Source of the DNA: Candidatus Multivoradales bacterium
Lineage (GTDB): Bacteria > Acidobacteriota > Thermoanaerobaculia > Multivoradales > JAHEKO01
Length of the DNA stretch: 64,000 nucleotides
Reading direction: 5' to 3'
Assembly: GCA_965223155.1 (NCBI GenBank)
Contig: CBDCVR010000013.1
Coordinates: 1-64,000 of the forward strand
The position numbers and the translations under genes are program-made. Shown here piece by piece: positions 24,372 through 42,484 of the stretch (position 1 is the first letter of the stretch; each line of letters begins with the position of its first letter). The notes beneath the pieces were generated by a model that had not been told where the DNA came from, searched no databases, and saw nothing but the letters and a program-made list of their open reading frames with translations.

Positions 24372-24586
24372 CTGGTACCTCTCGGCGCTGCAACCGGGGA
24401 GAGACCTGGTCTCGGCCCAAACTCCTGGCGAAACCGCAAGTCGAAGGTTTGCTGGTACTCGCAACCACGCCGAATGGGACCGGCCGATGCCGGGGGGCTC
24501 AGCACCTGCTCTACCGGCGCCGAACCGGGCCAGATATGGGATCGACGACGCTCTTCTACCGGTGCAGGCCGGCCAGATTGAAGTAA
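24372..24586 (+). pseudogene. 3' remnant of an Asp-box propeller gene
   Basis: Reads ..GETWSRPKLLAKPQVEGLLVLATTPNGTGRCRGAQHLLYRRRTGPDMGSTTLFYRCRPARLK*, homologous to the C-termini of the downstream copies; 5' part missing. Confidence 0.85.
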
Positions 24587-24610
24587 GGCCATTCAACAGG
24601 GGAGAACACG

Positions 24611-24937
24611 ATGGGAAATGGTGGACTCGACATAGCTTCTCGGAAGGCCGGGCCAAGGCGTTTGCATCCGCTCTTCGCGGGGCTCGTGATTCTTGCCGCC
24701 TCGGCTCTTGGACTGGTGTCCCCGGCGGCGGCGGCCAACGTCGCCCGGCCGGTGTACGACGCTCCGGACGATCTGCCGGACGACATGATGTGTGGCGATT
24801 CGGTGTCCGGGTACGTGCGGATGAAGAACAAGGGACAGCCCTGGAAGCGCCTGGCCGACGGTGGCGCCGGGCAGCGGCTGACGACGGCGGACTCTTGCCC
24901 GGTGCTAGCCTGCCTGGGACAAAGGAGGTCCGTATGA
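24611..24937 (+). CDS. Leader ORF copy L1: truncated N-terminus of the giant protein (signal peptide + partial Ig-like domain)
   Basis: First 94 aa nearly identical to 34394-34675; GGGGAG RBS; ATGA overlap with the next gene. Confidence 0.7.
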   Translation: MGNGGLDIASRKAGPRRLHPLFAGLVILAASALGLVSPAAAANVARPVYDAPDDLPDDMMCGDSVSGYVRMKNKGQPWKRLADGGAGQRLTTADSCPVLACLGQRRSV

Positions 24938-26172
24938 CCGATTGCCGAGCCCGCTGGTTGAGCGTTGGGGGTTTGTTGATGGTTTGTGTTCTGGCCTGGG
25001 GAACGTATCCCGCCGAGGCGGCCTGGACGAAGCCGCGACGCATCGGGCCGAGTGGTGGAAACCTAGTGCAGCCCGAGATCGCTGCGTCCGGTGCCTCCAT
25101 CCATGTGGTCTACCGGCCTGGGGGCGGAGGAGCAGTGCACGTGAGCAGCAGCGATTGTGGTGACACCTGGTCCGAAGTCAAGAACATACCGAGAACCATG
25201 CGCGGCAGCGGACATCAGGTCGCAGTTGTAGGTACGGTCGTGCATCTCGTCTGGACTCAATTCGAAGCGATTCGAGGCGTCGGGGGGACGCTCCAGGTCC
25301 TTTACAGACGAAGCGAGGATTCGGGAAGAACGTGGATGGCTAGGCAAAGGTTGTCGAGCACCGCGTGGCACAACGGTCTACCCTCACTCGCGGTACACGG
25401 TAACGATCTGTGGGTGGCATGGCCGCGTGGTGAAATTGTCCAGAATCGGTTTCGGGCCACGGGGGTGGTCGTCGCTCGAAGTCACAACCGAGGTCGGCGC
25501 TGGCGGCGACGTGCAGTGGTTGGGCACGCTCCCGGCGCCCGCCATCCTCGTATCGCGGTCGACCCCGATCTCCCGTCCGCGACGTCCCGACTGCATCTGG
25601 TCTGGGAACAAGAAGTTCCGGAGGAGGATCCGGAGTTCTTCAAGGAGCTCTTGCATCGCGAGAGCAGGGATGGCGGCCGTTCGTGGTCCGCTCCGGAACG
25701 CGTCAACGATCGACTTGGTCTCGAGGCGAGTGCTTTGATCGCTGTTGGAGGAGCCGCTCATGTGGCTCGACAGATCCTCCCGGGGTTTCCTAGGTCGCGA
25801 GCCGATGTCTTCTACTACCGAAAGCCTGGAGACGGAGCTTGGAGTCGGCAATGGCGTCTCAGCACACAGGATTTCGCCTCGGGTGCCAGGCTGGCAGGGG
25901 CTTCGGGCAGGCTATGGGCGGTATGGACGAATTTCTTGGGCCCCGCAGGGGGCGGCATCTCGGTACGCAGAAGTCGTAGCAACGGCGCGCGCTGGGCTCG
26001 GCCCCATGTCTTGCAGCCAGTCGAGGGTTCCTTCCCCGCGATCGCCATGCCTGTAGCCCCAGTCGGTTCATGTGCTGGGACCGCCCACCTGATCTATCAA
26101 GGCTTCGCGGAGGTGGATGGCGAGCAGGTCTTTGGGCTCGTCTACCAACGGAATCCGAGAAAGTTGCCTTAG
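24934..26172 (+). CDS. Secreted Asp-box (BNR)/sialidase-fold beta-propeller, divergent paralogue A (412 aa)
   Basis: AAGGAGG RBS; signal peptide ending AEA; Asp-boxes SSDCGDTW, SEDSGRTW, SRDGGRSW, SRSNGARW. Confidence 0.85.
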   Translation: MTDCRARWLSVGGLLMVCVLAWGTYPAEAAWTKPRRIGPSGGNLVQPEIAASGASIHVVYRPGGGGAVHVSSSDCGDTWSEVKNIPRTMRGSGHQVAVVGTVVHLVWTQFEAIRGVGGTLQVLYRRSEDSGRTWMARQRLSSTAWHNGLPSLAVHGNDLWVAWPRGEIVQNRFRATGVVVARSHNRGRRWRRRAVVGHAPGARHPRIAVDPDLPSATSRLHLVWEQEVPEEDPEFFKELLHRESRDGGRSWSAPERVNDRLGLEASALIAVGGAAHVARQILPGFPRSRADVFYYRKPGDGAWSRQWRLSTQDFASGARLAGASGRLWAVWTNFLGPAGGGISVRRSRSNGARWARPHVLQPVEGSFPAIAMPVAPVGSCAGTAHLIYQGFAEVDGEQVFGLVYQRNPRKLP

Positions 26173-26196
26173 TCGGGAACACAAGAGGAGCTTTGG

Positions 26197-26364
26197 ATGG
26201 GACCAAGCAAACGCATCGCGAACGCGGTCTTCATAGTCGGGATCACGGCGCTCATAGGCGCAGCGACTCCCACACTAGCCGCCAACAAGTCAGATGCTGT
26301 CGGCAACTCCCTCCCCTCCGAGATGATGTGTGGCGACCGTCAGGCCCTACGAAGAGCCACTTGA
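26197..26364 (+). pseudogene. Diverged leader relic (55 aa) of a second giant-protein paralogue
   Basis: GAGGAG RBS; MGPSKRIANAVFIVGITALIGAATPTLAANKSDAVGNSLPSEMMCGD.. matches the signal peptide + LPDDMMCGD pattern of the leaders. Confidence 0.6.
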
Positions 26365-26646
26365 CCTTGCGGCGTCATTTGCAATGTTTCGCCGCAAGAT
26401 CTAGGATCAATCTGCTGGTCCTCCCCTAGAGTCGGGACGCCGGGCTTGAGGCCCGGTCGAATCATGTGTAGGGAGGCTCATGTGTGGTGAGCGGAGGGAG
26501 ATGGGAACCTCATCCGATCGCGTACTGAGACAACTCGATCTGCGGCGCTCGGGCCGAACCACGGCCAGATGCGGCGGCACTGGACGGGGCTCTTCGACTC
26601 TTGGGACCTCGCCGGTCCTACCCTGCCTGGGACAAAGGAGGTCCGT

Positions 26647-27915
26647 ATGACCGATTGCCGATGGCACCGACGGTTGAGCGTTGGGGGGTTGTTGATGGTT
26701 TGTGTTCTGGCCTGGGGAACGTATCCCGCCGAGGCGGCCTGGAGTCGGCCGCAAGTCTTGCACAAGACAGTGTTTCTTGAAGATGGCGTGGCTCTTGCGG
26801 CGTCGGGAAATACGCTGCATGCCGTCTACTACGGAGAAGATCCGTCGCTCGAACAGAAGTCGATCATCTACTACCGCCGGAGCCGGGACTGCGGCACCAC
26901 GTGGAGTAGAGAGCAGCACGTAGCCGTCAACGAGTTCCACGGCGAGCTAGGGTTTGCCGCCGTCGGCGACGTGCTGCACCTGGCCTGGGCGGACCGAACA
27001 GTACGAGATCGCCGGAAGCGCTCGAAGCCGCGGGTCTTCTACGCCTCGAGCCGGGACGCCGGTCGCACCTGGAGCGAGCCGCGGTTGCTGTCTCCTCCGT
27101 CCTTCTACGCCGAGGCGCCGTCGTTGGCGGCATCGGGCGAGGAGGTCTACGTGGCCTATCGGCTCGGGGGAAAGGGGCCGAAACAGCGGTTCGAAAACCC
27201 ACGAATCGACCTTGCGGTGAGCACCGACGGGGGCGAGTCCTGGACTCGCCGGAGGGCAACACCGCGGGTGATAGCGAATGGCCCGCGGATCGCCTTGGCC
27301 GGACCACGGCCTGGCCTCGCTCCGCGTTTGCATCTGGTGTGGAGCGCCCACGACCCGCAAGGTCATGGTCCTCGCCATCAAGTCTCAGGAGACCGAGGCG
27401 CGACCTGGTCGAAGCAGCTGTTCTTGGATCAGAGCGGCCCAGAGACCGCCTCTTCGCATATCGAAGGCTTGGCGACTTCCGACGGGGACGTCCACACGGT
27501 TTGGCGAAGGCGTCCGGAAGGACCGTTTTCGGTTGAGGTCGTCTACGACAACAACGTCGGCGGTGGGTTTCATCCGGAAGGCCGGAAACTCAGTATCGAC
27601 CTGGACGCAGACATTCCGACCGCCCGTGCGGCGGCACTGGCAGTAGCGGGCCTGGCGGTCCACGTGGCCTGGTCGGAGGTCGGGCCGGCCGATGCTGCCC
27701 TGCTGTCTGTGCAAAGTGGCGATCGGGGGAGGACCTGGTCCCGGCCCAAGCTCTTGGCCAAGTCAAGAGTCGTTGGGGATACCGCCTTGGCAACGACACC
27801 CGATGGAGCCGGAGCGTGCCGGAGTGCCCAGCATTTGCTCTACCGGCGCCAACTCGGGTCCGGCCCAGGCTCGACGACGCTCTTCTACCGGCGCAGGCCG
27901 GCTAGATTGAAGTAG
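26647..27915 (+). CDS. Secreted Asp-box beta-propeller copy B1 (422 aa)
   Basis: RBS, signal peptide, Asp-boxes SRDCGTTW, SRDAGRTW, STDGGESW, SGDRGATW, SGDRGRTW. Confidence 0.88.
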   Translation: MTDCRWHRRLSVGGLLMVCVLAWGTYPAEAAWSRPQVLHKTVFLEDGVALAASGNTLHAVYYGEDPSLEQKSIIYYRRSRDCGTTWSREQHVAVNEFHGELGFAAVGDVLHLAWADRTVRDRRKRSKPRVFYASSRDAGRTWSEPRLLSPPSFYAEAPSLAASGEEVYVAYRLGGKGPKQRFENPRIDLAVSTDGGESWTRRRATPRVIANGPRIALAGPRPGLAPRLHLVWSAHDPQGHGPRHQVSGDRGATWSKQLFLDQSGPETASSHIEGLATSDGDVHTVWRRRPEGPFSVEVVYDNNVGGGFHPEGRKLSIDLDADIPTARAAALAVAGLAVHVAWSEVGPADAALLSVQSGDRGRTWSRPKLLAKSRVVGDTALATTPDGAGACRSAQHLLYRRQLGSGPGSTTLFYRRRPARLK

Positions 27916-27938: not shown

Positions 27939-28265
27939 ATGGGAAATGGTGGACTCGACATAGCTTCTCGGAAGGCCGCGCCAAGACGATGGGGTACGTT
28001 CCTCGCTGGCTTCGTGATTCTTGCCGCCTCGGCTCTTGGACTGGTGTCCCCGGCGGCGGCGGCCAACGTCGCCCGGCCGGTGTACGACGCTCCGGACGAC
28101 CTGCCGGACGACATGATGTGTGGCGATTCGGTGTCCGGGTACGTGCGGATGAAGAACAAGGGGCAGCCCTGGAAGCGCCTGGCCGATGGTGGCGCCGGGC
28201 AGCGGCTGACGACGGCGGACTCTTGCCCGGTGCTAGCCTGCCTGGGACAAAGGAGGTCCGTATGA
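27939..28265 (+). CDS. Leader ORF copy L2
   Basis: As L1; carries the KAAPRRWGTF allele, same as the intact giant gene. Confidence 0.7.
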   Translation: MGNGGLDIASRKAAPRRWGTFLAGFVILAASALGLVSPAAAANVARPVYDAPDDLPDDMMCGDSVSGYVRMKNKGQPWKRLADGGAGQRLTTADSCPVLACLGQRRSV

Positions 28266-29527
28266 CCGATTGCCGAGCCCGCTGGTTGAGCGTTGGGGGT
28301 TTGTTGATGGTTTGTGTTCTGGCCTGGGGAACGTATCCCGCCGAGGCGGCCTGGAGTCGGCCGCAGAGGTTTCACACGACGAATCACGTATCGCAGGGAG
28401 CGGCCCTGGGCGCATCTGGGGACACTGTGCATGCCGTGTACTACGGGGAGGCTTCGCTCGAGCCTCTCGTGACGGCCATCTACTACCGACGCAGTCTGGA
28501 TTGCGGGTTGACGTGGGGCGGCGAGCGAGCGGTGGCATTCGATGCGCTCTACGGGTCCGTCAGCCTTGCCGCCGTCGGTGACGTGCTGCACCTGGCCTGG
28601 GCGGACCGAACGATACGGGATCGCCGGAAGCGCACGAAGCCGCGGGTCTTCTACGCTTCGAGCCGGGACGCCGGTCGCACCTGGAGCGATCCGAGGTTGC
28701 TGTCTCCTCCGTCCTTCTACGCCGAGGCGCCGTCGTTGGCGGCATCGGGCGACGAGGTCTACGTGGCCTACCGGCTCGGGGGAAAGGGGCCGAAACAGCG
28801 GTTCGAAAACCCACGAATCGACCTTGCGGTGAGCACCGACGGGGGCGAGTCCTGGACTCGCCGGAGGGCAACACCGCGGGTGATAGCGAATGGTCCGCGG
28901 ATCGCCTTGGCCGGACCACGGCCTGGCCTCGCTCCGCGTTTGCATCTGGTGTGGAGCGCCCACGACCCGCAAGGTCATGGTCCTCGCCATCAAGTCTCAG
29001 GAGACCGAGGCGCGACCTGGTCGAAGCAGCTGTTCTTGGATCCGAGCGGCCCAGAGACCTTCTCTTCGCATATCGAGGGCCTAGCGACATCCGGAAGCGA
29101 TGTCCATACGGTTTGGCGGAGATTCCCAGAGGAACCGGTTTCGATTGAGGTCGTTTACGACAACAACGTCGGCGGTGGGTTTCACTCAGAAGGCCGGAAA
29201 CTCAGTATCGACCTGGACGCAGACATTCCAACCGCCCGTGCGGCGGCACTGGCAGTAGCGGGCCTGGCGGTCCACGTGGCCTGGTCGGAGGTCGGGCCGG
29301 CCGATGCCGCCCTGCTGTCTGTGCGAAGTGGCGATCGAGGAGAGACTTGGTCCCGGCCCAAACTCTTGGCGAAATCAGCGGTGTTCGGGGATATCTCTTT
29401 GGCTACGACATCCGACGGAGTCGGGGCGTGTCGTGGCGCGCAGCACTTGATGTACCGGCGCAGAGGTGGCCCTCGTCCGGGCTCAACCAACCTTCTTTAC
29501 CGGCGCAGGCCGGCCAAATTGAAGTAG
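28262..29527 (+). CDS. Secreted Asp-box beta-propeller copy B2 (421 aa)
   Basis: As B1, with different allele blocks. Confidence 0.88.
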   Translation: MTDCRARWLSVGGLLMVCVLAWGTYPAEAAWSRPQRFHTTNHVSQGAALGASGDTVHAVYYGEASLEPLVTAIYYRRSLDCGLTWGGERAVAFDALYGSVSLAAVGDVLHLAWADRTIRDRRKRTKPRVFYASSRDAGRTWSDPRLLSPPSFYAEAPSLAASGDEVYVAYRLGGKGPKQRFENPRIDLAVSTDGGESWTRRRATPRVIANGPRIALAGPRPGLAPRLHLVWSAHDPQGHGPRHQVSGDRGATWSKQLFLDPSGPETFSSHIEGLATSGSDVHTVWRRFPEEPVSIEVVYDNNVGGGFHSEGRKLSIDLDADIPTARAAALAVAGLAVHVAWSEVGPADAALLSVRSGDRGETWSRPKLLAKSAVFGDISLATTSDGVGACRGAQHLMYRRRGGPRPGSTNLLYRRRPAKLK

Positions 29528-29553: not shown

Positions 29554-29880
29554 ATGGGAAATGGTGGACTCGACATAGCTTCTCGGAAGGCCGGGCCAAG
29601 GCGTTTGCATCCGCTCTTCGCGGGGCTCGTGATTCTTGCCGCCTCGGCTCTTGGACTGGTGTCCCCGGCGGCGGCGGCCAACGTCGCCCGGCCGGTGTAC
29701 GACGCTCCGGACGATCTGCCGGACGACATGATGTGTGGCGATTCGGTGTCCGGGTACGTGCGGATGAAGAACAAGGGGCAGCCCTGGAAGCGCCTGGCCG
29801 ATGGTGGCGCCGGGCAGCGGCTGACGACGGCGGACTCTTGCCCGGTGCTAGCCTGCCTGGGACAAAGGAGGTGCGTATGA
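29554..29880 (+). CDS. Leader ORF copy L3
   Basis: As L1. Confidence 0.7.
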   Translation: MGNGGLDIASRKAGPRRLHPLFAGLVILAASALGLVSPAAAANVARPVYDAPDDLPDDMMCGDSVSGYVRMKNKGQPWKRLADGGAGQRLTTADSCPVLACLGQRRCV

Positions 29881-31142
29881 CCGATTGCCGAGCCCGATGG
29901 TTGAGCGTTGGGGGTTTGTTGATGGTTTGTGTTCTGGCCTGGGGAACGTATCCCGCCGAGGCGGCCTGGAGTCGGCCGCAAGTCTTGCACAAGACAGTGT
30001 TTCTTGAAGATGGCGTGGCTCTTGCGGCGTCGGGAAATACGCTGCATGCCGTCTACTACGGAGAAGATCCGTCGCTCGAACAGAAGTCGATCATCTACTA
30101 CCGCCGGAGCCGGGACTGCGGCACCACGTGGAGTAGAGAGCAGCACGTAGCCGTCAACGAGTTCCACGGCGAGCTAGGGTTTGCCGCCGTCGGCGACGTG
30201 CTGCACCTGGCCTGGGCGGACCGAACAGTACGAGATCGACGGAAGCGCTCGAAGCCGCGGGTCTTCTACGCTTCGAGCCGGGACGCCGGTCGCACCTGGA
30301 GCGAGCCGCGGTTGCTGTCTCCTCCGTCCTTCTACGCAGAGGCGCCGTCGCTGGCGGCATCGGGCGAGGAGGTCTACGTGGCCTATCGGCTCGGGGGAAA
30401 GGGGCCGAAACAGCGGTTCGAAAACCCACGAATCGACCTTGCGGTGAGCACCGACGGGGGCGAGTCCTGGACTCGCCGGAGGGCAACACCGCGGGTGATA
30501 GCGAATGGCCCGCGGATCGCCTTGGCCGGACCACGGCCTGGCCTCGCTCCGCGTTTGCATCTGGTGTGGAGCGCCCACGACCCGCAAGGTCATGGTCCTC
30601 GCCATCAAGTCTCAGGAGACCGAGGCGCGACCTGGTCGAAGCAGCTGTTCTTGGATCAGAGCGGCCCAGAGACCTTCTCTTCGCATATCGAGGGCCTAGC
30701 GACTTCCGGCGGCGATGTCCATACGGTTTGGCGGAGATTCCCAGAGGAGCCGGTTGCGATCGAAGTCGTTTACGACAACAACGTCGGCGGTGGGTTTCAT
30801 CCAGAAGGGCGGAAACTCAGTATCGACCTGGACGCAGACATTCCAATCGCCCGTGCGGCGGCACTGGCAGTAGCGGGCCTGGCGGTCCACGTGGCCTGGT
30901 CGGAAGACGGGCCTCTGTCCACAGTCTTGTTGTCGGTGCGGAGCGGCGATCGGGGGAGGACCTGGTCCCGGCCCAAGCTCTTGGCCAAGTCAAGAGTCGT
31001 TGGGGATACCGCCTTGGCAACGACACCCGATGGAGCCGGAGCGTGCCGGAGTGCCCAGCACTTGCTCTACCGGCGCCAACTCGGGTCCGGCCCAGGTTCG
31101 ACGACGCTCTTCTACCGGCGCAGGCCGGCCAGATTGAAGTAA
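29877..31142 (+). CDS. Secreted Asp-box beta-propeller copy B3 (421 aa)
   Basis: As B1. Confidence 0.88.
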   Translation: MTDCRARWLSVGGLLMVCVLAWGTYPAEAAWSRPQVLHKTVFLEDGVALAASGNTLHAVYYGEDPSLEQKSIIYYRRSRDCGTTWSREQHVAVNEFHGELGFAAVGDVLHLAWADRTVRDRRKRSKPRVFYASSRDAGRTWSEPRLLSPPSFYAEAPSLAASGEEVYVAYRLGGKGPKQRFENPRIDLAVSTDGGESWTRRRATPRVIANGPRIALAGPRPGLAPRLHLVWSAHDPQGHGPRHQVSGDRGATWSKQLFLDQSGPETFSSHIEGLATSGGDVHTVWRRFPEEPVAIEVVYDNNVGGGFHPEGRKLSIDLDADIPIARAAALAVAGLAVHVAWSEDGPLSTVLLSVRSGDRGRTWSRPKLLAKSRVVGDTALATTPDGAGACRSAQHLLYRRQLGSGPGSTTLFYRRRPARLK

Positions 31143-31166: not shown

Positions 31167-31490
31167 ATGGGAAATGGTGGACTCGACATAGCTTCTCGGA
31201 AGGCCGGGCCAAGGCGTTTGCATCCGCTCTTCGCGGGGCTCGTGATTCTTGCCGCCTCGGCTCTTGGACTGGTGTCCCCGGCGGCGGCCAACGTCGCCCG
31301 GCCGGTGTACGACGCTCCGGACGACCTGCCGGACGACATGATGTGTGGCGATTCGGTGTCCGGGTACGTGCGGATGAAGAACAAGGGACAGCCCTGGAAG
31401 CGCCTGGCCGACGGCGGCGCCGGCCAGCGGCTGACGACTGCGGACTCTTGCCCGATGCTAGCCTGCCTGGGACAAAGGAGGTCCGTATGA
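31167..31490 (+). CDS. Leader ORF copy L4
   Basis: As L1, one Ala codon shorter. Confidence 0.7.
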   Translation: MGNGGLDIASRKAGPRRLHPLFAGLVILAASALGLVSPAAANVARPVYDAPDDLPDDMMCGDSVSGYVRMKNKGQPWKRLADGGAGQRLTTADSCPMLACLGQRRSV

Positions 31491-32752
31491 CCGATTGCCG
31501 AGCCCGATGGTTGAGCGTTGGGGGGTTGTTGATGGTTTGTGTTCTGGCCTGGGGAACGTATCCCGCCGAGGCGGCCTGGAGTCGGCCGCAGAGGTTTCAC
31601 ACGACCAATCACGTATCGCACGGAGCGGCCCTGGGCGCATCCGGGGACACTGTCCATGCCGTGTACTACGGGGAGGCTTCGCTCGAGCCTCTCGTGACGG
31701 CCATCTACTATCGACGCAGTCTGGATTGCGGGCTGACGTGGGGTCGCGAGCGAGCGGTGGCATTCGACGCGCTCTACGGGTCCGTCAGCCTTGCCGTGGT
31801 CGGCGACGTGCTGCACCTGGCTTGGGCGGACCGAACAGTACGAGATCGCCGGAAGCATCGGAAGCCGCGGGTCTTCTACGCCTCGAGCCGGGACGCCGGT
31901 CGCACCTGGAGCGAGCCGCGGTTGCTGTCTCCGCCGTCCTTCTACGCCGAGGCGCCGTCGTTAGCGGCATCGGGCGAGGAGGTCTACGTGGCCTATCGGC
32001 TCGGGGGAAAGGGGCCGAAACAGCGGTTCGAAAACCCACGAATCGACCTTGCGGTGAGCACCGACGGGGGCGAGTCCTGGACTCGCCGAAAGGCAACATC
32101 GCGAGTTACGGCGAATGGCCCGCGGATCGCCTTGGCCGAATCGCCGCCTGGTCTCGCTCCGCGTTTGCATCTGGTGTGGAGCGCCCACGACCCGCAAGGT
32201 CATGGTCCTCGCCATCAAGTCTCAGGGGACCGAGGCGCGACCTGGTCGAAGCAGCTGTTCTTGGATCAGAGCGGCCCAGAGACCGCCTCTTCGCATATCG
32301 AAGGCTTGGCGACTTCCGACGGGGACGTCCACACGGTTTGGCGAAGGCGTCCGGAAGGACCGTTTTCGGTTGAGGTCGTCTACGACAACAACGTCGGCGG
32401 TGGGTTTCATCCAGAAGGCCGGAAACTCAGTATCGACCTGGACGCAGACATTCCGACCGCCCGTGCGGCGGCACTGGCAGTAGCGGGCCTGGCGGTCCAC
32501 GTGGCCTGGTCGGAGGTCGGGCCGGCCGATGCCGCCCTGCTGTCGGTGCGAAGTGGCGATCGAGGAGAGACTTGGTCCCGGCCCAAACTCTTGGCGAAAT
32601 CAGCGGTGTTCGGGGATATCTCTTTGGCTACGACATCCGACGGAGTCGGGGCGTGTCGTGGCGCGCAGCACTTGATGTACCGGCGCAGAGGTGGCCCTCG
32701 TCCGGGCTCAACCAACCTTCTTTACCGGCGCAGGCCGGCCAAATTGAAGTAG
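31487..32752 (+). CDS. Secreted Asp-box beta-propeller copy B4 (421 aa)
   Basis: As B1. Confidence 0.88.
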   Translation: MTDCRARWLSVGGLLMVCVLAWGTYPAEAAWSRPQRFHTTNHVSHGAALGASGDTVHAVYYGEASLEPLVTAIYYRRSLDCGLTWGRERAVAFDALYGSVSLAVVGDVLHLAWADRTVRDRRKHRKPRVFYASSRDAGRTWSEPRLLSPPSFYAEAPSLAASGEEVYVAYRLGGKGPKQRFENPRIDLAVSTDGGESWTRRKATSRVTANGPRIALAESPPGLAPRLHLVWSAHDPQGHGPRHQVSGDRGATWSKQLFLDQSGPETASSHIEGLATSDGDVHTVWRRRPEGPFSVEVVYDNNVGGGFHPEGRKLSIDLDADIPTARAAALAVAGLAVHVAWSEVGPADAALLSVRSGDRGETWSRPKLLAKSAVFGDISLATTSDGVGACRGAQHLMYRRRGGPRPGSTNLLYRRRPAKLK

Positions 32753-34393: not shown

Positions 34394-37300
34394 ATGGGAA
34401 ATGGTGGACTCGACATAGCTTCTCGGAAGGCCGCGCCAAGACGATGGGGTACGTTCCTCGCTGGCTTCGTGATTCTTGCCGCCTCGGCTCTTGGACTGGT
34501 GTCCCCGGCGGCGGCGGCCAACGTCGCCCGGCCGGTGTACGACGCTCCGGACGATCTGCCGGACGACATGATGTGTGGCGATTCGGTGTCCGGGTACGTG
34601 CGGATGAAGAACAAGGGGCAGCCTTGGAAGCGCCTGGCGGACGGCGGCGCCGGCCAGCGGCTGACGACGGCGGACAACCCCCTGGTCAAGGCCGGAACCC
34701 GTGTGTACAAGCTCAAGGCGGGGACCACGGTTCGGAGAGGCAAGGTCTACGATTTTCCGGTCACTCTCACGGCACCTGAACATTCAAACTACACGACCTT
34801 TGTCGAGTACACCGCAGTCTGGGAGATGGGCCTCCCAGACGGATCGACCTTTCCGCATCCCTACGAACACACGGTGCGGGTGTGGTGTCCGAGGCGCACC
34901 CAGAACAACGCGATTGTCGTCGGGCATAACCTCCCCGGCTCAGTGCCTTGTGGCGAGACGGTCGGAGAGTCCGGCGATCTTTGGGTGGAGATGAAGAACG
35001 TCGGAGGCCGCACTTGGAGGCCAAGACGGAAGAAGGGGGATGGCCAGCACCTGTACACGCCTGACAATCCGTTCCATCCCGAAGTCTCGATTCCGCTACC
35101 GGTGAATACGACCGTCCAACCCCTGGAGACCCATCGATTCCCGGTGCGGCTGACGGCTCCGGAAGCCTATGGCGTCCACGACGTCACGTTCCGAATGCGA
35201 CCGCACAAGGGAAAACCCTTCGGCGAAGAGCTGCCGTGGACCCTCACTTCGCAGTGCGCCAATAACGATGCCCAGTTCGTGGAGACCAAGACGACGGTCC
35301 CCGCGACCATGAGCTGCGGTGCGGAGGGCGACTACCACGTCGCATTCCTCAATACCGGCGACACTCGCTGGAAGAAGGGCAAGTACTCTCTTCGTCTGTT
35401 CGACGGCCCCTTCGGGACCAAGAATCTCAAGGTTCGAGGGCAAGACGTTCGTCCAACCCGGGATCGGCGATTCCCGGTACGCCTTGTGGCTCCGAGCGAG
35501 AACGGGACGCATACGACGACCTGGCGGATGCACACAGGCGCGGGAGTGCCGTTCGGGGAGGCCACGACGTTGTCGATCGACGTCACGGATTGCCAGGAGC
35601 CGGAGCCGCTGGACGCGGCGCCCGTTCCAAGCGGTATCGACTTCCCATCCACGATGCAGTGCGGCTCGACCTACCCCGCTACCTTGACGATGAGAAATAC
35701 CGGCACCAAGAACTGGAAAGAGAGAAAGCCGCACCACCGTCTGCGCCCCGTGGCGGGGAAGAACGACCGGTTCTGGCGAAGGATCCGTATGGTTAAGCTT
35801 CCCGACGGTGTCGTCGTCGGTGAGAACGGCACCCATCCGTTCGAAATGACCCTCTCGGCTCCGATCTTGGACCCGTCGGAGCCCGAGGTTATGAATCTCT
35901 CTACCAGTTGGACCATGGTCGAGGTTCGAGAGGACGAGACCGAGGCTTTTGGGACGCCCTACGGACAGGACATCGAAGTTGTTTGTCTGGACTACGATTC
36001 CGAGGAGGTGAAGAAGAACGCCTCGGTTCAGGTGGCGCCGGGAGGGTCCATCCGCTTTGTCATCGAGGTCAAGAACAGCGGACGGCGCAACTGGGTGACT
36101 CCCGAGCTGCGAGACATTAGCGGTACGTTCGTGAAGAGGTCGTACGGTGGGACGGTGGCTTCGCAGGGAAGCCATGTCTTTGGCTTCACGCGAACTGCCC
36201 CGTCGGCGATAGGTACCTACGCGACCCAGTGGCAGATCTGGGAACCAACTGCGGGCCTCTTCGGCGCGGTCATCTCGATTCAAGTCACGGTCTCGGAGGG
36301 CTCGTCTGAAGTGGGCTCGTGCACCGGCGGAGGCTCCGCGGCCAAGCTGCCGCGCCTGGGCATTCTGGGGTTCAATCCGCGCTATCTGACACAGGACGGA
36401 AACGCCGCCTATGTCCTGACCGGAGCCCATAGCTGGAGCGTGGTGCAGAAGCACGAGCGAATGAACAAGCTCGAAGGCTACATGAGCAAGCTACGCGGCA
36501 AAGGCCACAATTTCACCCGGGGATGGTACTGGGAGGACTGTTTCTACGACCCCATTCCGTATAGCGCAAGCCAGTACAAGTGCATGGATCCCGGCAAGAG
36601 CTTTTTGCCGACGGCGGATGAGCCTGGGAATGGTTACAACCAGGCGTACGCAGATCTCCTCAAGGCCCGTCTCAACGAGGCCGCCGACAACGACCTCTAC
36701 ATGAGCACGATGCTCTTCCAGGGGTGGAGTCTGCCCATTAGCTTACGGAAGGAAGAGGGTGGAGTCGATGGTTGGGCCCGGAATCCGTATCGTAAGGAAT
36801 TCGCGGACGGCAGGGCACTCCACTCCGACGGGATTCTTGACGAGCAGATCTACTACGCCAACTACATCCTGAACCAGACCAAGGGCTGCACCAACACCTT
36901 CTTTGAAGTTTCGAACGAGAGCGTCGTGACCGGCCAGGTGGCTGGGGAGAAGTGGCAGAGGCTAGTTGTCACCGAGATCAAGAAAAAGATCTGCGGTCAG
37001 AAACCCTGCCTGGCCTGGGCCTCCTGCTGGTTCGGGGCGTCCAACACCGCTCTGATCGGCACGGGCGCGGATCTGGTCTCCTTTTGCGGGAACGATCCGG
37101 ATTCGCCTGACTGGGCCGGCGGCGATGCGGTCCTCATCTTTGACACGGACCATGTTGACGCCGAGAATCCGAATCCGAAGCGGGCGTGGAAAGCGTTCCT
37201 ACGAGGGCAGCACCCGATCCTGATGGATCTCGAGACCGAGGACCTGGTCTGGTACAAGCCGGGCCAGAACTTTCCCAACCAAACTCAGAAGAACGGTTCC

Positions 37301-40300
37301 CGGGACTATGGACTTGCGCTCGGAGAGATCCAAGCGATCATCGACAAGATCAATGACAATGGCGACTACGTCCAAGGCAGTGAGGGGATCGCCAGGTCCA
37401 AGAGCCGGCTCAAGCACCTGGCGCCGGTTGCTCCCGCCCAAGAAGGCATCGTCGGCTCGAGCTCGCCGAACTTTGCGCTGTTCTCCAGCGGGACTCCGTG
37501 TCCCGGGTTCTCGGCGAACCAGAAGTGCGGACTTGCTGCTCCAAACGGCAAGGAGTTCGTTGTGTACGCTGAACAGGGTGTCCAAGTCTGTTCGCTGACC
37601 GTGGGCTCGTCGTACCTGGCCTCTTGGAAGAATCCGTTTGCGAACGGGTACTTTCTCGAAGACATCAAGCGGGACGGCGTTTCCAACTGTGAGACCTTCG
37701 GCTACCCGCAGGCGGCGGGAGACTTCGCGGTCCTGCATTTGACCCGCCTCGAGAATCCGCCTTCAGCTTCGATCGCAGCGTTCCGGGCCGGGCAAGAGCT
37801 TCCGGCTCCGGTCAAGATCTCCACCCGCCAGCAACTGGATCTCTACGGTAGCGATTCGACGACCGATCCGTTGACCTATGCTTGGGAGTTTGGCGACGGA
37901 CACGCGGGCCCGGCCGAAGAGCAAGTGGATCACATCTACGAAGAGCCAGGTGTGTACGTGGTCGAGCTCGAGGTAACCGATGACGATGGCCAGACCGCTT
38001 TCGCCGAGCTAGAGATCACCGCGGTCGATGGTCCGGTCGCGACCTTCGTCACGAGTCCGCGGGCGGAAGGGGGGGTGGTTACGGTGCTCGACGGCGATGA
38101 GGTGGGCTTTGACGCGACGTACTCGACGAGCGATCCGCTGCACCCGATCGTCTCCTACGAGTGGGATTTTGGTGACGGAACGGCAGCTGACGGTGCGGCG
38201 CTGGCGGAGACGACACATACTTTCGTCGTCGGACCGGGTGTGAGCGAGACGAGCTATACGGTGGGATTGAGGGTCCGAGACGACTTGGATGCGGCCTCCG
38301 ATCTGGAGACGGTCGTCGTGCGAGTCCAGCTGGCCCCGGCAATCGTTGTCCAGCCGCAGGACGCTACGGCCACCGAGGGCGAAACAGTGAGCCTCTCGTG
38401 TGTTGCGACTGGCGCGCCGCCGCTCGTCTATCGGTGGCTGAAGAATGATGAAGAACTCTTGGATGGTGTCGGGGTCTCGGGCGCGGGTACCGCGACGTTG
38501 ACGCTAAGCGCGCTCGAAGAGCCAGACTCCGGACGATACCGGTGCCGCGTCGAGAACCCCGTTGGCGAAGCCGAGTCCGAGGAAGCTGAGATGTCCGTCG
38601 GTGCTGCGCCTACGATCGTCACTTCGCCGGTCACGATCGAGACGAACCGGGGTGGAGAGGCCGATCTCCGCTGCTGGGTCGAGGCGGCCGAACCGCTGAC
38701 CTGGCAGTGGTACAAGGACTCTGCAGCCGCTGCCGACGGAGGTCCGATCGCGGGAGTTGACAGTCAGACCCTTCGGATTACGAACGCCGATGGGCTGGAG
38801 GCCGGCGAGTACTACTGCTCCGTCTCGAACCCACTAGGATCCATGACGTCCGGGATCTTTACCGTTCGCCACATTCCCTGGAAGGCCTACCCGATCGCGA
38901 CGATCTCTTCCGAAGGCTTCACCAACACGGCCGAGACCGAGCCGATTCACGAGGCGCTGAACGACCAGGAGAATCTGGCGACATCGACCGCCGATGACGG
39001 CGTGTTGGATTCGCTCCGGGTGGGGATGGCCGCGGTGGACGATCCGAACACCGACTACGGTCACGAGGTCTATGTCTGGGGCAACGCGCTCGATGCGGCG
39101 ACGTGTGCCATCGAGGTGAGGCTCTCTCAAGGCTCGATCGAGCTGGCCTCGGGGAGTCTGGTGCTGGAGGACGAGGCCACGAGCGAGGACGGTTGGGTGC
39201 GGTTGGAGGTCCCGGCCGAGGCCGCGGCCAACATCAGCGACTACGGCGACGTCCAGATCGAGGTCGAGAAGATCCACGATCCGGCCAATGTCTGCCGGGC
39301 CGAGCTCGAGCGCATCGTCTTCCGGGTGCCGCCGTCGCCGACGCCGGTGGAGATCGCCGTGCCGGTGGCTACGGAGTCGAACGAAGGCTTCAGCGCAGAG
39401 CCGATTCATGAACAACTGGACGACGCGGACAACGTCGCGACGTCCACGGTCGCGGACGGTACGTTGGATGCCTTCGTGGTGCGGATGGGCGCGGTGAGCG
39501 ATCCGGGGGTGGATGAGGGGCATGTGGTCAGGGTGTGGGGCGCGGCTCTCGATGCGGAGCCTGTGGAGGTTCGGCTGAGCCTCTATCAGGGGCCGGCGCT
39601 TCTGGCGACTCTGGATGTCTCGTTCCCCTCGTGGACGAAGGTGGTACGGATCGAGTTACCGACGGCGCTCGCGGCGCTGATTACCGACTACACGGATCTA
39701 AGGCTGGGTGTCGAGAAGACCCACGCCGGCGTCAACGGCTCGGACCGGCGCGTCGAGATCCGGAAGATCGAGTTCGAGGTGCCGATTCCGCCGGCGATCA
39801 CGCAGCACCCTTCGGGTCAGACGATCGGGGTGGGGCAGACGGCCAACTTCACTTGTGCCGCCTCCGGTTCGGAGTCGCTGGTCTACCAGTGGCAGAAGGA
39901 CGGCGTGGATCTGGTGGACGGCGGCTCGATCTCGGGTGCCGAGACCGAGAGTCTCACCATCACGAACGCCCAGCTTGCCGATGCCGGCGCCTACCGGTGC
40001 GTGGCGATGGAAAGCGATGCTTCGGCGTACTCGGACGAGGCTGTCCTGGACGTGGGCGTGCCGCCGGCGATTACGGCCGATCCGGAGCCCGCGACGGCGC
40101 CGCTGGGAGGTCAGGCCAGTTTCTCGTGCTCGGCGACGGGCAGCGGTACGTTGGCGTACTTGTGGTTCCAGGATGGGGTCGGTCTGGTGGATTCGGCCCG
40201 GATCTCGGGAGCCTCGACGCCGACGGTGACGATGACCGATCTCGAGGCCGGGGATGTGGGTGAGTACTCGTGCCAGGTGGCGAGCCCGTACGGCTCGGCC

Positions 40301-42484
40301 GTTTCGGCGACTGCGAGTCTCTCGGCCGGGGCCGCCCCGACGATCACTCAGCAGCCGGCCGCGACGTCGGTCATCGCCGGCGGGGACGTCGGGTTCGCGT
40401 GCGCGGCAACCGAGGACGCCGGCGGGACGATCGCGTACCAGTGGCAGAAGGATGGCGTGGATCTGGTGGACGGCGGGTTGATCTCGGGGGCGACGACGGC
40501 GTCGCTTGCGATCGTCAACTCGGATGCCTCGGTCGAAGGCGACTACGCCTGCGTGGCGACGGGGACGTTTGGTTCGACGGCTTCGGATGCCGCGGCGCTG
40601 ACCTTCGAATGGTGGCGGGCGTATCCGATCGCGAAGATCTCATCGTCGAACTTCCACCCGTCGCCCCAGGACGAGCAGTTGGATGACCTGACGAACATCG
40701 TCTGGACCCGGGACTATGTCGGACAGACGAGTAGCTGGGGCGAGGGTTTTACGGTTCGGATGGCTCCGTTGCCCGATCCGGACACGGACCTGGGCCACGA
40801 GGTCTGGATGTTGGCGCGCTGGCTGAAGTCGGCAACCAGTGTTCAGGTGAAGCTAGTGCAGAACGGTTCGTCGATCGGCTGGAAGTACGTCAATCTGGGG
40901 AGCTCGTTTACCTGGGTCAAGTGGTCGGTGCCGGCCCAGACGGCAGCCAACATCACGGACTACTCGGATCTTCAGCTTCAGGTCAACAAGTACCACTGCT
41001 GTGGGCCCAACTCCTATGCCGACAGCCGTGTCGAGATCAAGGCCCTGGAACTGCGGATCCCACAGCAAACGGATCCCGTGCAGCGAGTCCTGCCGATCGC
41101 GACAACGGCCAACGACGGGTTCTCTCCGACGCCGCTCCACGAGAACCTACAAGACGAGGGCGCGGGAGTCACGAGCACGACGAGTAACGGCACCCGCGAC
41201 TATTTCAATGTCCGGATGGCCCCGATGGTGGATCCGATGACGGATTCTGGTCACGTGCTCCGGATTACGGCGAAAGCCGTCCACAAGGAGCCCGTGACCG
41301 TGCGCGTCAAGCTCATCGCCGGAGGCGTGACCACGGGACTTGGTAACTATCCGTTCAATTTCGCTCCGTCGGTCTTGCGTATCGCGGTGCCGGCTTCGGC
41401 CGCCGCGACGATCACCGACTACTCGGACGTGGTCGTCCAGGTGTACAAGTTTCATGAGATCTATGGCAACAACTGGGACCGGGCGCCGGAGATTCAGAAG
41501 ATCGAGTTCGAGGTGCCGTATCCGGACCTGACGATCACGCAGCATCCCACCGGGCAGACGGTGGGTTTGGGTGAGACGATCTCGATGAGCTGCTCGGCGG
41601 CGAGCGCCTGGCCGGTGAGCTACGCGTGGAAGAAGGACGCAGCGCTCCTGGGCGGCGGCGGCCGGATCGCCGGGGTCGCGACCCAGACGCTGACGATTAC
41701 GGACAGCCAGGTCGGCGATACCGGCTCCTACACCTGTGTCGCGACCGATCAGTCCGGCTCGGTCGAGTCGAATCCGGCGCTGGTGTGGTCGGGCACGGCG
41801 CCTCCGGGATCGTGCGGCGCGACCACGGGCATCGTCTCGTGGCTGGTCGGGGACCGCGGCATCACGAGCTCGGCCGGCGACGTCTCGCTTTGGGGCGATC
41901 AGTCGAGCCTGGGCAACGACGCGAGCCAGCCGGCTTCCGGGGTCCAGCCTTCGGTAGGTGCGGCCCTCAACGGACGCGGTACGGTGTTCTTCGATGGGAC
42001 GGATGAGTATCTGGATCTCCCGGCAATGGCCAGTCACTTCACCAACGGTGGCGAGCTGTTCGTTGTCATGAAACATGCGAGCGCGGCGCCTTCGCAGCCA
42101 AAGTCCCTGTTTCCTGTCGACCTCAACTCAGGAAATTTCATCCCGCACTTTGTCTGGTCGAACGGATACGCGTACGACGGCTTCCTGTCGACCGTTCGAA
42201 AGGTCCCGGGGAATCCTACTCACGACATCAGCCAATGGCGGGTCGTCAACATTCGCTCTCAAGACGGCGAGTATGCCTTTGAGATTGACGGGAGTGTTCT
42301 GCATGCGACAGCAACGAACACCTTTGCGGTCCCGAGGACGGCGGCACGAATCGGTCGCGGTGGGTACCATTCGAACTACTACTTCAACGGCAACCTGGCC
42401 GAGATCTGCCTCTTCAACCGGGTCCTGACCGCCGGGGAGCGGGCCGCGACGCTCGGGTATCTCCAGAGTGAGTGGGGGCTCTAG
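34394..42484 (+). CDS. Giant secreted multidomain protein (2696 aa): 5x NBR1-Ig-like, glycoside-hydrolase-like (DUF6298-like) barrel, 2x PKD, 6x Ig I-set, 4x unassigned repeat, C-terminal LamG/ConA-like
   Basis: Signal peptide; repeated M(K/R)NxGxxxW..L.AP..FG; NPRYL..GAHSW..FEVSNE..DTDH..WKAFLRG; WEFGDG/WDFGDG; C..W.K.G..D.G.Y.C Ig motifs; FNGNLAEICLFNRVLT. Start trimmed from 34187 to the RBS-supported ATG. Confidence 0.9.
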   Translation: MGNGGLDIASRKAAPRRWGTFLAGFVILAASALGLVSPAAAANVARPVYDAPDDLPDDMMCGDSVSGYVRMKNKGQPWKRLADGGAGQRLTTADNPLVKAGTRVYKLKAGTTVRRGKVYDFPVTLTAPEHSNYTTFVEYTAVWEMGLPDGSTFPHPYEHTVRVWCPRRTQNNAIVVGHNLPGSVPCGETVGESGDLWVEMKNVGGRTWRPRRKKGDGQHLYTPDNPFHPEVSIPLPVNTTVQPLETHRFPVRLTAPEAYGVHDVTFRMRPHKGKPFGEELPWTLTSQCANNDAQFVETKTTVPATMSCGAEGDYHVAFLNTGDTRWKKGKYSLRLFDGPFGTKNLKVRGQDVRPTRDRRFPVRLVAPSENGTHTTTWRMHTGAGVPFGEATTLSIDVTDCQEPEPLDAAPVPSGIDFPSTMQCGSTYPATLTMRNTGTKNWKERKPHHRLRPVAGKNDRFWRRIRMVKLPDGVVVGENGTHPFEMTLSAPILDPSEPEVMNLSTSWTMVEVREDETEAFGTPYGQDIEVVCLDYDSEEVKKNASVQVAPGGSIRFVIEVKNSGRRNWVTPELRDISGTFVKRSYGGTVASQGSHVFGFTRTAPSAIGTYATQWQIWEPTAGLFGAVISIQVTVSEGSSEVGSCTGGGSAAKLPRLGILGFNPRYLTQDGNAAYVLTGAHSWSVVQKHERMNKLEGYMSKLRGKGHNFTRGWYWEDCFYDPIPYSASQYKCMDPGKSFLPTADEPGNGYNQAYADLLKARLNEAADNDLYMSTMLFQGWSLPISLRKEEGGVDGWARNPYRKEFADGRALHSDGILDEQIYYANYILNQTKGCTNTFFEVSNESVVTGQVAGEKWQRLVVTEIKKKICGQKPCLAWASCWFGASNTALIGTGADLVSFCGNDPDSPDWAGGDAVLIFDTDHVDAENPNPKRAWKAFLRGQHPILMDLETEDLVWYKPGQNFPNQTQKNGSRDYGLALGEIQAIIDKINDNGDYVQGSEGIARSKSRLKHLAPVAPAQEGIVGSSSPNFALFSSGTPCPGFSANQKCGLAAPNGKEFVVYAEQGVQVCSLTVGSSYLASWKNPFANGYFLEDIKRDGVSNCETFGYPQAAGDFAVLHLTRLENPPSASIAAFRAGQELPAPVKISTRQQLDLYGSDSTTDPLTYAWEFGDGHAGPAEEQVDHIYEEPGVYVVELEVTDDDGQTAFAELEITAVDGPVATFVTSPRAEGGVVTVLDGDEVGFDATYSTSDPLHPIVSYEWDFGDGTAADGAALAETTHTFVVGPGVSETSYTVGLRVRDDLDAASDLETVVVRVQLAPAIVVQPQDATATEGETVSLSCVATGAPPLVYRWLKNDEELLDGVGVSGAGTATLTLSALEEPDSGRYRCRVENPVGEAESEEAEMSVGAAPTIVTSPVTIETNRGGEADLRCWVEAAEPLTWQWYKDSAAAADGGPIAGVDSQTLRITNADGLEAGEYYCSVSNPLGSMTSGIFTVRHIPWKAYPIATISSEGFTNTAETEPIHEALNDQENLATSTADDGVLDSLRVGMAAVDDPNTDYGHEVYVWGNALDAATCAIEVRLSQGSIELASGSLVLEDEATSEDGWVRLEVPAEAAANISDYGDVQIEVEKIHDPANVCRAELERIVFRVPPSPTPVEIAVPVATESNEGFSAEPIHEQLDDADNVATSTVADGTLDAFVVRMGAVSDPGVDEGHVVRVWGAALDAEPVEVRLSLYQGPALLATLDVSFPSWTKVVRIELPTALAALITDYTDLRLGVEKTHAGVNGSDRRVEIRKIEFEVPIPPAITQHPSGQTIGVGQTANFTCAASGSESLVYQWQKDGVDLVDGGSISGAETESLTITNAQLADAGAYRCVAMESDASAYSDEAVLDVGVPPAITADPEPATAPLGGQASFSCSATGSGTLAYLWFQDGVGLVDSARISGASTPTVTMTDLEAGDVGEYSCQVASPYGSAVSATASLSAGAAPTITQQPAATSVIAGGDVGFACAATEDAGGTIAYQWQKDGVDLVDGGLISGATTASLAIVNSDASVEGDYACVATGTFGSTASDAAALTFEWWRAYPIAKISSSNFHPSPQDEQLDDLTNIVWTRDYVGQTSSWGEGFTVRMAPLPDPDTDLGHEVWMLARWLKSATSVQVKLVQNGSSIGWKYVNLGSSFTWVKWSVPAQTAANITDYSDLQLQVNKYHCCGPNSYADSRVEIKALELRIPQQTDPVQRVLPIATTANDGFSPTPLHENLQDEGAGVTSTTSNGTRDYFNVRMAPMVDPMTDSGHVLRITAKAVHKEPVTVRVKLIAGGVTTGLGNYPFNFAPSVLRIAVPASAAATITDYSDVVVQVYKFHEIYGNNWDRAPEIQKIEFEVPYPDLTITQHPTGQTVGLGETISMSCSAASAWPVSYAWKKDAALLGGGGRIAGVATQTLTITDSQVGDTGSYTCVATDQSGSVESNPALVWSGTAPPGSCGATTGIVSWLVGDRGITSSAGDVSLWGDQSSLGNDASQPASGVQPSVGAALNGRGTVFFDGTDEYLDLPAMASHFTNGGELFVVMKHASAAPSQPKSLFPVDLNSGNFIPHFVWSNGYAYDGFLSTVRKVPGNPTHDISQWRVVNIRSQDGEYAFEIDGSVLHATATNTFAVPRTAARIGRGGYHSNYYFNGNLAEICLFNRVLTAGERAATLGYLQSEWGL

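What the first reader, a model, noticed from the sequence alone, without database searches (positions are those of the whole stretch)
24372..42484. Candidate new system: expandable array of variable secreted beta-propeller cassettes feeding into a giant surface-protein gene
Seen: six intact Asp-box propeller genes plus one remnant lie head-to-tail. Each is followed within ~25 bp by the start of a giant-protein gene, which is truncated each time except the last (2696 aa). The unit is ~1613 bp, all on one strand, tightly coupled, with no terminator, transposase, integrase or RT noticed. Known: orphan-module arrays (CDI/Rhs) and antigenic-variation cassettes use repeated gene fragments as recombination arms, but these typically repeat toxin C-termini. 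Here the N-terminus is repeated and the variable part is the partner gene. Inference: a homologous-recombination accordion that varies the number and sequence of secreted propellers accompanying an adhesin/glycan-active protein. Caveat: near-identical tandem units can be assembly artefacts.
Basis: partly seen in the sequence, partly recalled or inferred. Interest (0 to 1): 0.9.

Follow-up and report, generated by a model that had tools for sequence, protein, structure and literature searches.

The report
Shuffled propeller array before swappable giant
Six intact, block-shuffled genes for a predicted secreted propeller protein, each trailed by the start of a giant surface-protein gene, stand in front of one full giant gene whose front half appears to be exchanged between strains, and the propellers are likely kept as partner (possibly immunity-like) proteins, a mirror-image variant of known toxin-immunity gene arrays.

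Summary
The array is real. Six intact propeller genes and one remnant are each followed 23-26 nt later by a giant-gene start. Corrections: five stubs share one 3-nt junction at codon 94/95, so they descend from one duplication; propeller 1 is only ~34% identical and is followed by a different giant start. Units are block mosaics (p<1e-4), propellers are under purifying selection (dN/dS 0.17-0.35), and stubs are not decaying (11 synonymous, 1 non-synonymous codon). New: the giant is polymorphic too. A second public contig carries these stubs, other propeller mosaics and a giant ~40% identical up to residue 1637 and ~97% after; contigs from sequencing runs break at that point. The propeller is predicted seven-bladed, not a sialidase; the giant holds a GH140-like domain. 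Five paralogous gene pairs in this genome look like polymorphic toxin-immunity pairs. The mechanism resembles esaG/tipC paralogue arrays and Vibrio immunity arrays, with reversed polarity. Function is untested, propeller-giant covariation is mixed, and the pairing was not found in other species. The scan had not noted it on other DNA.

The parts
24316..24382 (.). Left border: short 15-bp tandem repeat where the array is cut off, just behind an SdpI/YfhL-family gene (23957-24304)
24383..24586 (+). Propeller remnant (last blade, own allele, no start codon)
24611..24937 (+). Stub 1: giant codons 1-94 (signal peptide plus start of first NBR1-type Ig domain) and 14 unrelated codons; stop overlaps next ATG
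24934..26172 (+). Propeller 1, 412 aa, divergent (33-34% identical to copies 2-6), same signal peptide
26197..26364 (+). Divergent stub, 55 aa: start of another giant type (signal peptide and MMCGD motif)
26340..26646 (+). Unique non-coding leader of propeller 2; holds the donor side of the GAC junction and a weak promoter-like pair (by eye, below scan threshold)
26647..27915 (+). Propeller 2, 422 aa
27939..28265 (+). Stub, 108 aa, same signal-peptide allele as the full giant
28262..29527 (+). Propeller 3, 421 aa
29554..29880 (+). Stub, 108 aa, second signal-peptide allele
29877..31142 (+). Propeller 4, 421 aa; carries a blade-6 block also seen in the second contig's propellers
31167..31490 (+). 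Stub, 107 aa (one codon shorter, frame kept)
31487..32752 (+). Propeller 5, 421 aa
32779..33105 (+). Stub, 108 aa
33102..34367 (+). Propeller 6, 421 aa; predicted seven-bladed Asp-box beta-propeller with Sec-type signal peptide (read by eye)
34394..39301 (+). Giant, exchangeable N-terminal half (aa 1-1636): signal peptide, NBR1-type Ig repeats, GH140/DUF6298-like domain (about aa 656-1122), two PKD, Ig domains, first unnamed 'X' domain
39302..42484 (+). Giant, conserved C-terminal arm (aa 1637-2696): three more X domains, Ig I-set domains, LamG-like end; switch point at 39302-39305

Best explanation
The locus is a tandem array of block-mosaic propeller genes in front of a giant surface-protein gene, and it likely works as a mirror-image polymorphic module: a unit of 'propeller plus front half of the giant' is likely swapped in by recombination anchored in the giant's conserved C-terminal arm, and displaced propellers are likely kept as binding or immunity-like partners of the giant's predicted glycoside hydrolase. 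Steps: (1) shown: one microhomology junction (GAC, codon 94/95) joins the giant's start to the propeller leader in five units, and a second, different junction cuts another giant type behind propeller 1; (2) shown: units are mosaics of a few old alleles; inferred: unequal crossing-over and gene conversion by the general RecA pathway expand, contract and shuffle them; (3) shown: stub variation is almost all synonymous; inferred: stubs pass through the full-length position; (4) shown for proteins of a second contig, gene order unseen: the giant's N-terminal 1636 residues are exchanged at a fixed point; (5) inferred from the ATGA overlaps and intact frames: all propellers can be translated from one transcript and exported by Sec; (6) untested: the propellers bind and neutralise or accompany the hydrolase domain.
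For: Single shared junction and ATGA overlap in 5 of 5 window-type stubs. 190 informative sites among units 2-6, 6246 of 17955 site pairs incompatible, clustering exceeded in 0 of 10000 permutations; blocks are either 93-100% or 54-83% identical between units, with different partners per block. dN/dS 0.17-0.35 in 10 of 10 pairs, dS up to 0.8-1.5 in variable blocks. Stub codons 26-94: 11 synonymous, 1 non-synonymous variable codon, p about 4e-6 against a neutral share of 0.73. Proteins sharing one 25,234-bp ENA contig length: two window-type stubs, two intact new propeller mosaics, a broken or noisy third, a giant 25-51% identical per 100 aa up to about aa 1600 and 97-100% over aa 1701-2100, and a 536-aa truncated copy of that other giant. 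In runs X1 and X3 contigs end or begin at window 39301-39330 and depth rises to the right, while one X2 contig runs through unbroken; this is the switch point of that other giant. Five paralogous A-B gene pairs in the genome share the giant's NBR1-Ig arm and Ig/X arm; A C-termini and B N-termini covary in 5 of 5, three A ends resemble murein endopeptidase M74 (E 2e-3 to 2e-5, below the curated cut-off). The X domain also sits in an Rhs protein with an orphan array in genome G027. RecA present, no reverse transcriptase. Same logic described for Vibrio immunity arrays and esaG/tipC arrays.
Against: Strict cognate pairing is not seen: the second contig's giant front half is about 40% identical, yet its intact propellers are 77-97% identical to window copies and no divergent propeller from that contig appeared (that search scored only the top 8000 candidates). 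The hydrolase family mostly occurs without such a partner: 4 of 80 loci had any Asp-box propeller in the fetched flanks, so it is not a toxin by default. No toxin activity is known for the domain. Variation is only weakly biased to the propeller's top face: 33 of 91 against 23 of 85 loop positions, p=0.20; 59 of 147 against 35 of 141 with a wider definition, p=0.006. dN/dS below 1 gives no sign of diversifying selection. The pairing was not found in any other species searched. The second contig's gene order is unseen and it looks error-prone. No outer-membrane export partner was seen in the 27 flanking ORFs scanned.
Confidence: 0.5

Rival explanations
1. Same genetics, but the propellers are lectin-like or glycan-active surface proteins diversified for binding host, biofilm or food glycans (or to escape phage), and the giant is an adhesin-hydrolase, with no toxin-immunity relation.
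For: Nearest folds include 7-bladed lectins and polysaccharide lyases (6gxr Z 28.8, 7esk Z 29.4, 5mum Z 30.4). The hydrolase domain's relatives are mostly stand-alone secreted proteins. Propeller homologues occur singly without a giant in 4 of 60 relatives. Many alleles precede one giant type.
Against: No invariant catalytic residue outside the Asp-boxes in 20 aligned sequences. The giant's two arms are shared with covarying A-B pairs and with an Rhs protein. Propeller 1 changes together with the giant start behind it.
Confidence: 0.27
2. A recent, largely neutral or dosage-driven amplification: one accidental duplication grew by unequal crossing-over, and the mosaic only reflects conversion by DNA from neighbouring strains.
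For: One junction explains five units. Not seen in other species. No dN/dS above 1. Recently amplified copies would be intact without selection for the array.
Against: At least three old alleles per several blocks and a divergent propeller with its own giant start are stored. A second contig with another giant keeps the same stubs and other mosaics. The genome has three other kinds of variable arrays.
Confidence: 0.15
3. Assembly artefact: alleles from co-existing strains were strung into a false tandem.
For: Strain variation exists at this locus (extra variants). No laid contig spans the array. The genome holds small contigs that are variants of its other arrays.
Against: The stub-to-leader junction cannot arise by stringing intact operons; a second contig has the same stubs and at least three propellers; repeat-internal contigs are deeper than flanks; contigs are 1.2-1.3 Mb with no N.
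Confidence: 0.05
4. A dedicated enzyme (integrase, invertase or reverse transcriptase) acting in trans rearranges the cassettes at a specific site.
For: The junction is identical in five units; seven tyrosine recombinases exist elsewhere in the genome.
Against: No RT; no recombinase near; all units share orientation; exchange points are scattered through conserved stretches; the second junction at 26340 shares no motif with the first.
Confidence: 0.03

Closest known systems
Tandem paralogue arrays of T7SS immunity genes esaG and tipC, and lpl lipoproteins (Garrett et al. 2022, PMC9484751; 12 passages read)
   Same: Head-to-tail non-identical paralogues; homology blocks separated by variable blocks; recombination gives mosaic genes and gain or loss of copies; arms can include neighbouring non-paralogue DNA.
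   Different: Here the array lies upstream of the large gene, each unit carries a translated stub of that gene, the proteins are Asp-box propellers, and no immunity function is shown.
Vibrio cholerae T6SS immunity arrays by sequential displacement (Kirchberger et al. 2017, PMC5361080; 8 passages read)
   Same: A new module is proposed to enter by homology at one end and an illegitimate join at the other, leaving the old small partner gene intact beside a fragment of the old large gene.
   Different: Polarity is reversed: anchor at the 3' end of the large gene, variable N-terminal half, retained partners and N-terminal stubs upstream. No T6SS gene seen nearby; five of the units come from duplication rather than successive displacement.
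Rhs/CDI orphan toxin-immunity arrays (general features recalled; mentioned in passages; two such arrays are in this genome)
   Same: One full-length large gene plus truncated copies that serve as recombination arms, no dedicated recombinase.
   Different: Orphans repeat C-termini with different toxins downstream; here stubs repeat the N-terminus and carry no payload.
GH140 apiosidase fold / DUF6298 (PDB 8t9w, 5msy; PF19815)
   Same: Predicted TIM barrel plus beta-sandwich, TM 0.57-0.63; 10 of 20 listed relatives carry PF19815.
   Different: 12-14% identity; no direct Pfam hit; embedded in a 2696-aa Ig chain; substrate unknown.
Seven-bladed Asp-box/BNR propellers (CylK 7ron, 5mum, PL42 lyase 7esk, lectin 6gxr)
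   Same: Fold: Z 35.2 (rmsd 3.1, 342 aligned), 30.4 (3.4, 343), 29.4 (3.5, 353), 28.8 (3.0, 317).
   Different: 7-13% identity; no shared catalytic residues shown; a shared fold shows no function.

Membership tests
GH33 sialidase | Six-bladed propeller (feature recalled) | tested here: not met
   Model has seven four-stranded blades by its strand list; best structural matches are seven-bladed, sialidases rank lower, Z 22.9-24.0.
GH33 sialidase | RIP motif and conserved Arg triad/Tyr nucleophile (recalled) | tested here: not met
   No RIP in 6 of 6 window propellers or P0003; invariant columns of a 20-sequence alignment are Asp-box S, G, W only.
GH33 sialidase | Asp-box repeats | tested here: met
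   4-5 Asp-box motifs per copy; BNR_2 over cut-off.
esaG/tipC-type tandem paralogue array | Homology blocks flanking variable blocks, mosaic paralogues | tested here: met
esaG/tipC-type tandem paralogue array | Copy number and content differ between strains | tested here: inconclusive
   Second contig has other mosaics, but its DNA and gene order could not be read.
esaG/tipC-type tandem paralogue array | Paralogues neutralise a cognate toxin | not testable with these tools
   Needs bench work; covariation is mixed.
Sequential-displacement immunity array (Vibrio T6SS) | Old small partner kept intact beside a fragment of the displaced large gene | tested here: met
   Propeller 1 plus divergent 55-aa giant start, then a new leader.
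Sequential-displacement immunity array (Vibrio T6SS) | Linked to T6SS genes, partners downstream of the effector | tested here: not met
   Array is upstream; no T6SS family among 27 flanking ORFs scanned (not every ORF of the window was scanned).
Rhs/CDI orphan array | Constant N-terminal carrier, variable C-terminal toxin, orphan C-termini downstream | tested here: not met
   C-terminal arm is the constant part, N-terminal half varies; no Rhs or CdiA family in the giant.
Diversity-generating retroelement | Reverse transcriptase in the genome | tested here: not met
   0 matches to PF00078 in a 98.7% complete genome; control rang in 3 of 14.
Integron or shufflon | Adjacent tyrosine recombinase | tested here: not met
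   7 matches to PF00589, none within the window. Serine recombinases and attC sites were not searched.
GH140 / DUF6298 glycoside hydrolase | TIM barrel plus C-terminal beta-sandwich | tested here: met
   (model pLDDT 78, pTM 0.85)
GH140 / DUF6298 glycoside hydrolase | Family profile score and catalytic acids in GH140 positions | tested here: inconclusive
   No Pfam hit for the domain; it keeps the residues invariant among 20 relatives (N-E after strand 4, D-x-D-H), but these were not superposed on a solved active site.

The most novel reading that the evidence does not exclude
This locus and the five A-B pairs form an undescribed family of Sec-exported, Ig-chain polymorphic conflict systems in Acidobacteriota, built from an NBR1-Ig arm and an Ig/X arm. 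The window's member runs in reverse: a glycoside hydrolase payload in a swappable N-terminal half, a constant C-terminal anchor, and an upstream, translationally coupled archive of propeller immunity alleles that recombination reshuffles blade by blade.
Probability: 0.3. Interest if true: 0.8.

Novelty: new variant of a known kind. Interest (0 to 1): 0.58.

Why it matters
If the partner reading holds, it adds a polymorphic system with reversed polarity, a glycoside-hydrolase-like payload and a seven-bladed Asp-box partner, in a phylum where such systems are hardly described in the library searched. It also gives a compact natural test of how blade-wise shuffling changes binding: five alleles differ in defined blocks. 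If the propellers are lectins or passengers, it is a clear but ordinary case of tandem paralogue recombination.

Tried and rejected
Complex prediction of propeller with the hydrolase domain: tool not available, so no verdict. RNA evidence: no RNA holder listed. Rfam, 22.0-44.5 kb: 0 matches at E<=0.5. Metagenome scans: prop6 found 71 pattern matches, none confirmed; the C-arm found 39 loci, 0 of 39 with propeller, hydrolase, NBR1 or X. Genome scans: giant N-terminal 640 aa in 1 of 44 family genomes, a short stand-alone protein; propeller profile in 29 of 400 class genomes, weak and mostly single, but only 4 candidates per genome were scored so arrays cannot be counted; 0 of 29 of those loci (1.5-kb flanks) held hydrolase or NBR1; 13 NBR1-Ig regions from 11 of the 42 matching genomes held no propeller, hydrolase or X. 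Flank synteny in three genus genomes was uninformative: short contigs, no island genes near. Tli3: 3 of 20 aligned homologues hit PF24316, propeller 6 did not, and the Tle3/Tli3 paper has 0 occurrences of 'propeller' (PMC9860674, term search only), so this lead was dropped. PMC9846239 (12 passages) gave nothing decisive. Atlas searches gave only BNR-like or unnamed clusters at low recognition. A second structural look at the hydrolase model did not run. The X domain was not folded. Long overlapping ORFs in other frames were taken as shadows of GC-rich genes and not pursued. Literature searches with 0 hits: NBR1 + Ig-like + polymorphic toxin, Thermoanaerobaculia + Rhs + tandem (77), N-terminal toxin/upstream immunity/glycoside hydrolase (83), DUF6298 (104); two searches listed only unrelated papers. 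The library lacks most subscription journals; no supplements were read.
Full report
Observation. Self-comparison shows a direct-repeat block from 24395 to 34676. Six intact ORFs of 412-422 aa begin at 24934, 26647, 28262, 29877, 31487 and 33102, a remnant ends at 24586, and the giant runs 34394-42484, 2696 aa. In 7 of 7 cases a giant-type start follows after 23-26 nt. Units 2-6 are 86-96% identical. tblastn finds the propeller only at this locus in the 4.0-Mb genome. The organism is probably an acidobacterium: named homologues are Acidobacteriota or Thermoanaerobaculia, and earlier notes say the same; I did not test this with a marker gene.

Anatomy of the repeat. Five stubs (107-108 aa) follow the giant to codon 94 and then switch, at a shared GAC, into the leader that also lies in front of propeller 2; their stop overlaps the propeller ATG in 5 of 5. 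One microhomology junction copied along explains this. Propeller 1 shares the stub, ribosome site and signal peptide but is 33-34% identical beyond that. It is followed by a 55-aa start of a different giant type and by about 300 unique bases. That arrangement is what a displaced older module would look like (inference).

Is it an artefact? Contigs from four runs (two samples, one study, library type not on record) match 22500-24615, 24998-25838, 26205-26651 and 34594-36500 with 0 differences; pieces inside the repeats have depth 8-21 against about 3-4 on flanks; some pieces carry variants absent from the assembly. None spans the array, the tool warns that depth is no copy number, and the runs may be the assembly's source. 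Separately, proteins that share a contig length of 25,234 bp in ENA include two window-type stubs (P0046, P0080), two intact propellers with new block combinations (P0003, P0228) and pieces of a third (P0224-P0226).

Recombination and selection. Among units 2-6, 6246 of 17955 pairs of 190 informative sites are incompatible and compatible sites cluster beyond all 10000 permutations. Each block groups the units differently. dN/dS is 0.17-0.35 in 10 of 10 pairs; variable blocks reach dS 0.8-1.5 while blades 2-4 are near 0.05, so old alleles were recombined, not freshly mutated. In stub codons 26-94, 11 variable codons are synonymous and 1 is not (p about 4e-6; codon bias was not modelled). This fits stubs that exchange with functional giant starts. 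RecA is present, reverse transcriptase is not, no tyrosine recombinase lies in the window. GC3 of the propellers is 0.65-0.73 against 0.89-0.90 for two flanking housekeeping genes.

The giant is polymorphic. The switch is at residue 1637/1638, window 39302-39305. In runs X1 and X3 contigs end or begin at 39301-39330 and depth rises to the right; in X2 one contig runs through. I read this as two front halves joining one arm in sample S1. P0074 equals P0218 for 474 residues and then leaves the frame: a second kind of stub or a read error.

Proteins. The propeller model (pLDDT 85.7, pTM 0.86) has seven blades; best matches are CylK, 5mum, a PL42 lyase and a lectin. It has Asp-boxes but no RIP motif and no invariant polar residue outside them, so it is not a GH33 sialidase. 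The giant has NBR1-type Ig, PKD, I-set Ig and a weak LamG-like end. Residues 656-1122 fold like GH140 (TM 0.57-0.63) and 10 of 20 listed relatives carry DUF6298. Four copies of an unnamed 150-aa 'X' domain have no Pfam match.

Context that favours a conflict role. Five A-B gene pairs elsewhere in the genome use the same arms: A has NBR1-Ig repeats (95-99% identical over 460 aa) and a variable end; B has a variable start and Ig/X end (93-100% among four complete copies). A1-A3 are 59% and B1-B3 56% identical; A4 34% and B4 25-29%; A2-A5 44% and B2-B5 41%; no match across the two groups. Three A ends resemble M74 murein endopeptidase, two DUF3238; B starts are propeller-like or HEAT (most hits are under the curated cut-off). 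The X domain also occurs in an Rhs protein heading an orphan array in G027. Two ordinary Rhs orphan arrays are in this genome.

Evidence against the partner reading. The second contig's propellers stay 77-97% identical while its giant's front half is about 40% identical. Only 4 of 80 hydrolase loci had an Asp-box propeller nearby and 0 of 80 an NBR1-Ig gene. Single propeller homologues in 4 of 60 relatives had no giant in the fetched flanks, two of them on short or cut contigs. 0 of 13 other NBR1-Ig regions held a propeller. Top-face bias of variation is significant only with the wider of two definitions. No binding or expression evidence was obtained.

Comparison with what is known. Garrett et al. 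2022 (PMC9484751, passages) describe homology blocks, mosaics and copy changes in esaG, tipC and lpl arrays. Kirchberger et al. 2017 (PMC5361080, passages) propose displacement by homology-facilitated illegitimate recombination that keeps the old immunity gene. This locus works like both genetically, but fails membership in the T6SS and Rhs/CDI kinds on polarity and linkage, and immunity is untested. Searches found no paper on this gene combination; the library is partial.

Verdict. Real feature; genetics well supported (about 0.75 for a recombining array with an exchangeable giant half); partner or immunity function likely but untested, hence 0.5 for the whole explanation. New variant of a known kind, seen so far in one species-level population. 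Interest 0.58.

Noticed in passing
G000:C14:741668-765053 (L032-L034), C14:1325392-1331880 (L037), C15:1153342-1160195 (L036): Five A-B gene pairs: NBR1-Ig protein with variable C-terminus (M74-like or DUF3238-like) followed by a secreted protein with covarying N-terminus (propeller-like or HEAT) fused to Ig/X repeats; looks like an undescribed polymorphic toxin-immunity family with immunity domains on an Ig stalk.
   Followed up: partly
G000:C14:155372-183000 and C15:950000-982300: Two Rhs arrays with orphan modules; small contigs C1, C2 and C9 are 86-98% identical variants of them, which suggests strain-level rearrangement.
   Followed up: partly
window 23957-24304: SdpI/YfhL-family gene (a family that includes a peptide-toxin immunity protein, recalled) directly upstream of the array on the same strand.
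   Followed up: no
window 42485-42650: Long imperfect inverted repeat between the convergent giant and acyl-CoA synthetase genes; no other copy in the genome.
   Followed up: no
L176 / L178 (G027:C4 about 1.38-1.41 Mb and 2.23-2.24 Mb): X domain with Ig and PKD inserted in an Rhs protein, and a nearby small gene with a signal-like start fused to an Rhs core end, in decayed tandem copies.
   Followed up: partly
G000:C13:690700-692226 (L035): Stand-alone secreted paralogue of the giant's hydrolase domain, 508 aa, no propeller hit beside it.
   Followed up: partly
L266:677-9212 (G215:C1): Two 93%-identical 2.6-kb copies, each with a secreted 413-450 aa gene, downstream of an NBR1-Ig protein; possibly another duplicated partner array.
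   Followed up: no
L258-L259 (G049:C28): Three tandem units of an NBR1-Ig protein plus a roughly 1000-aa kinase-like gene (judged from the N-terminus only), 9-kb period, about 70% identical; the same pair occurs singly in L263 and L268.
   Followed up: no
G000:C13:167216-171170, 185188-199174, 855707-866715: Further local direct-repeat clusters on the window's contig, not examined.
   Followed up: no
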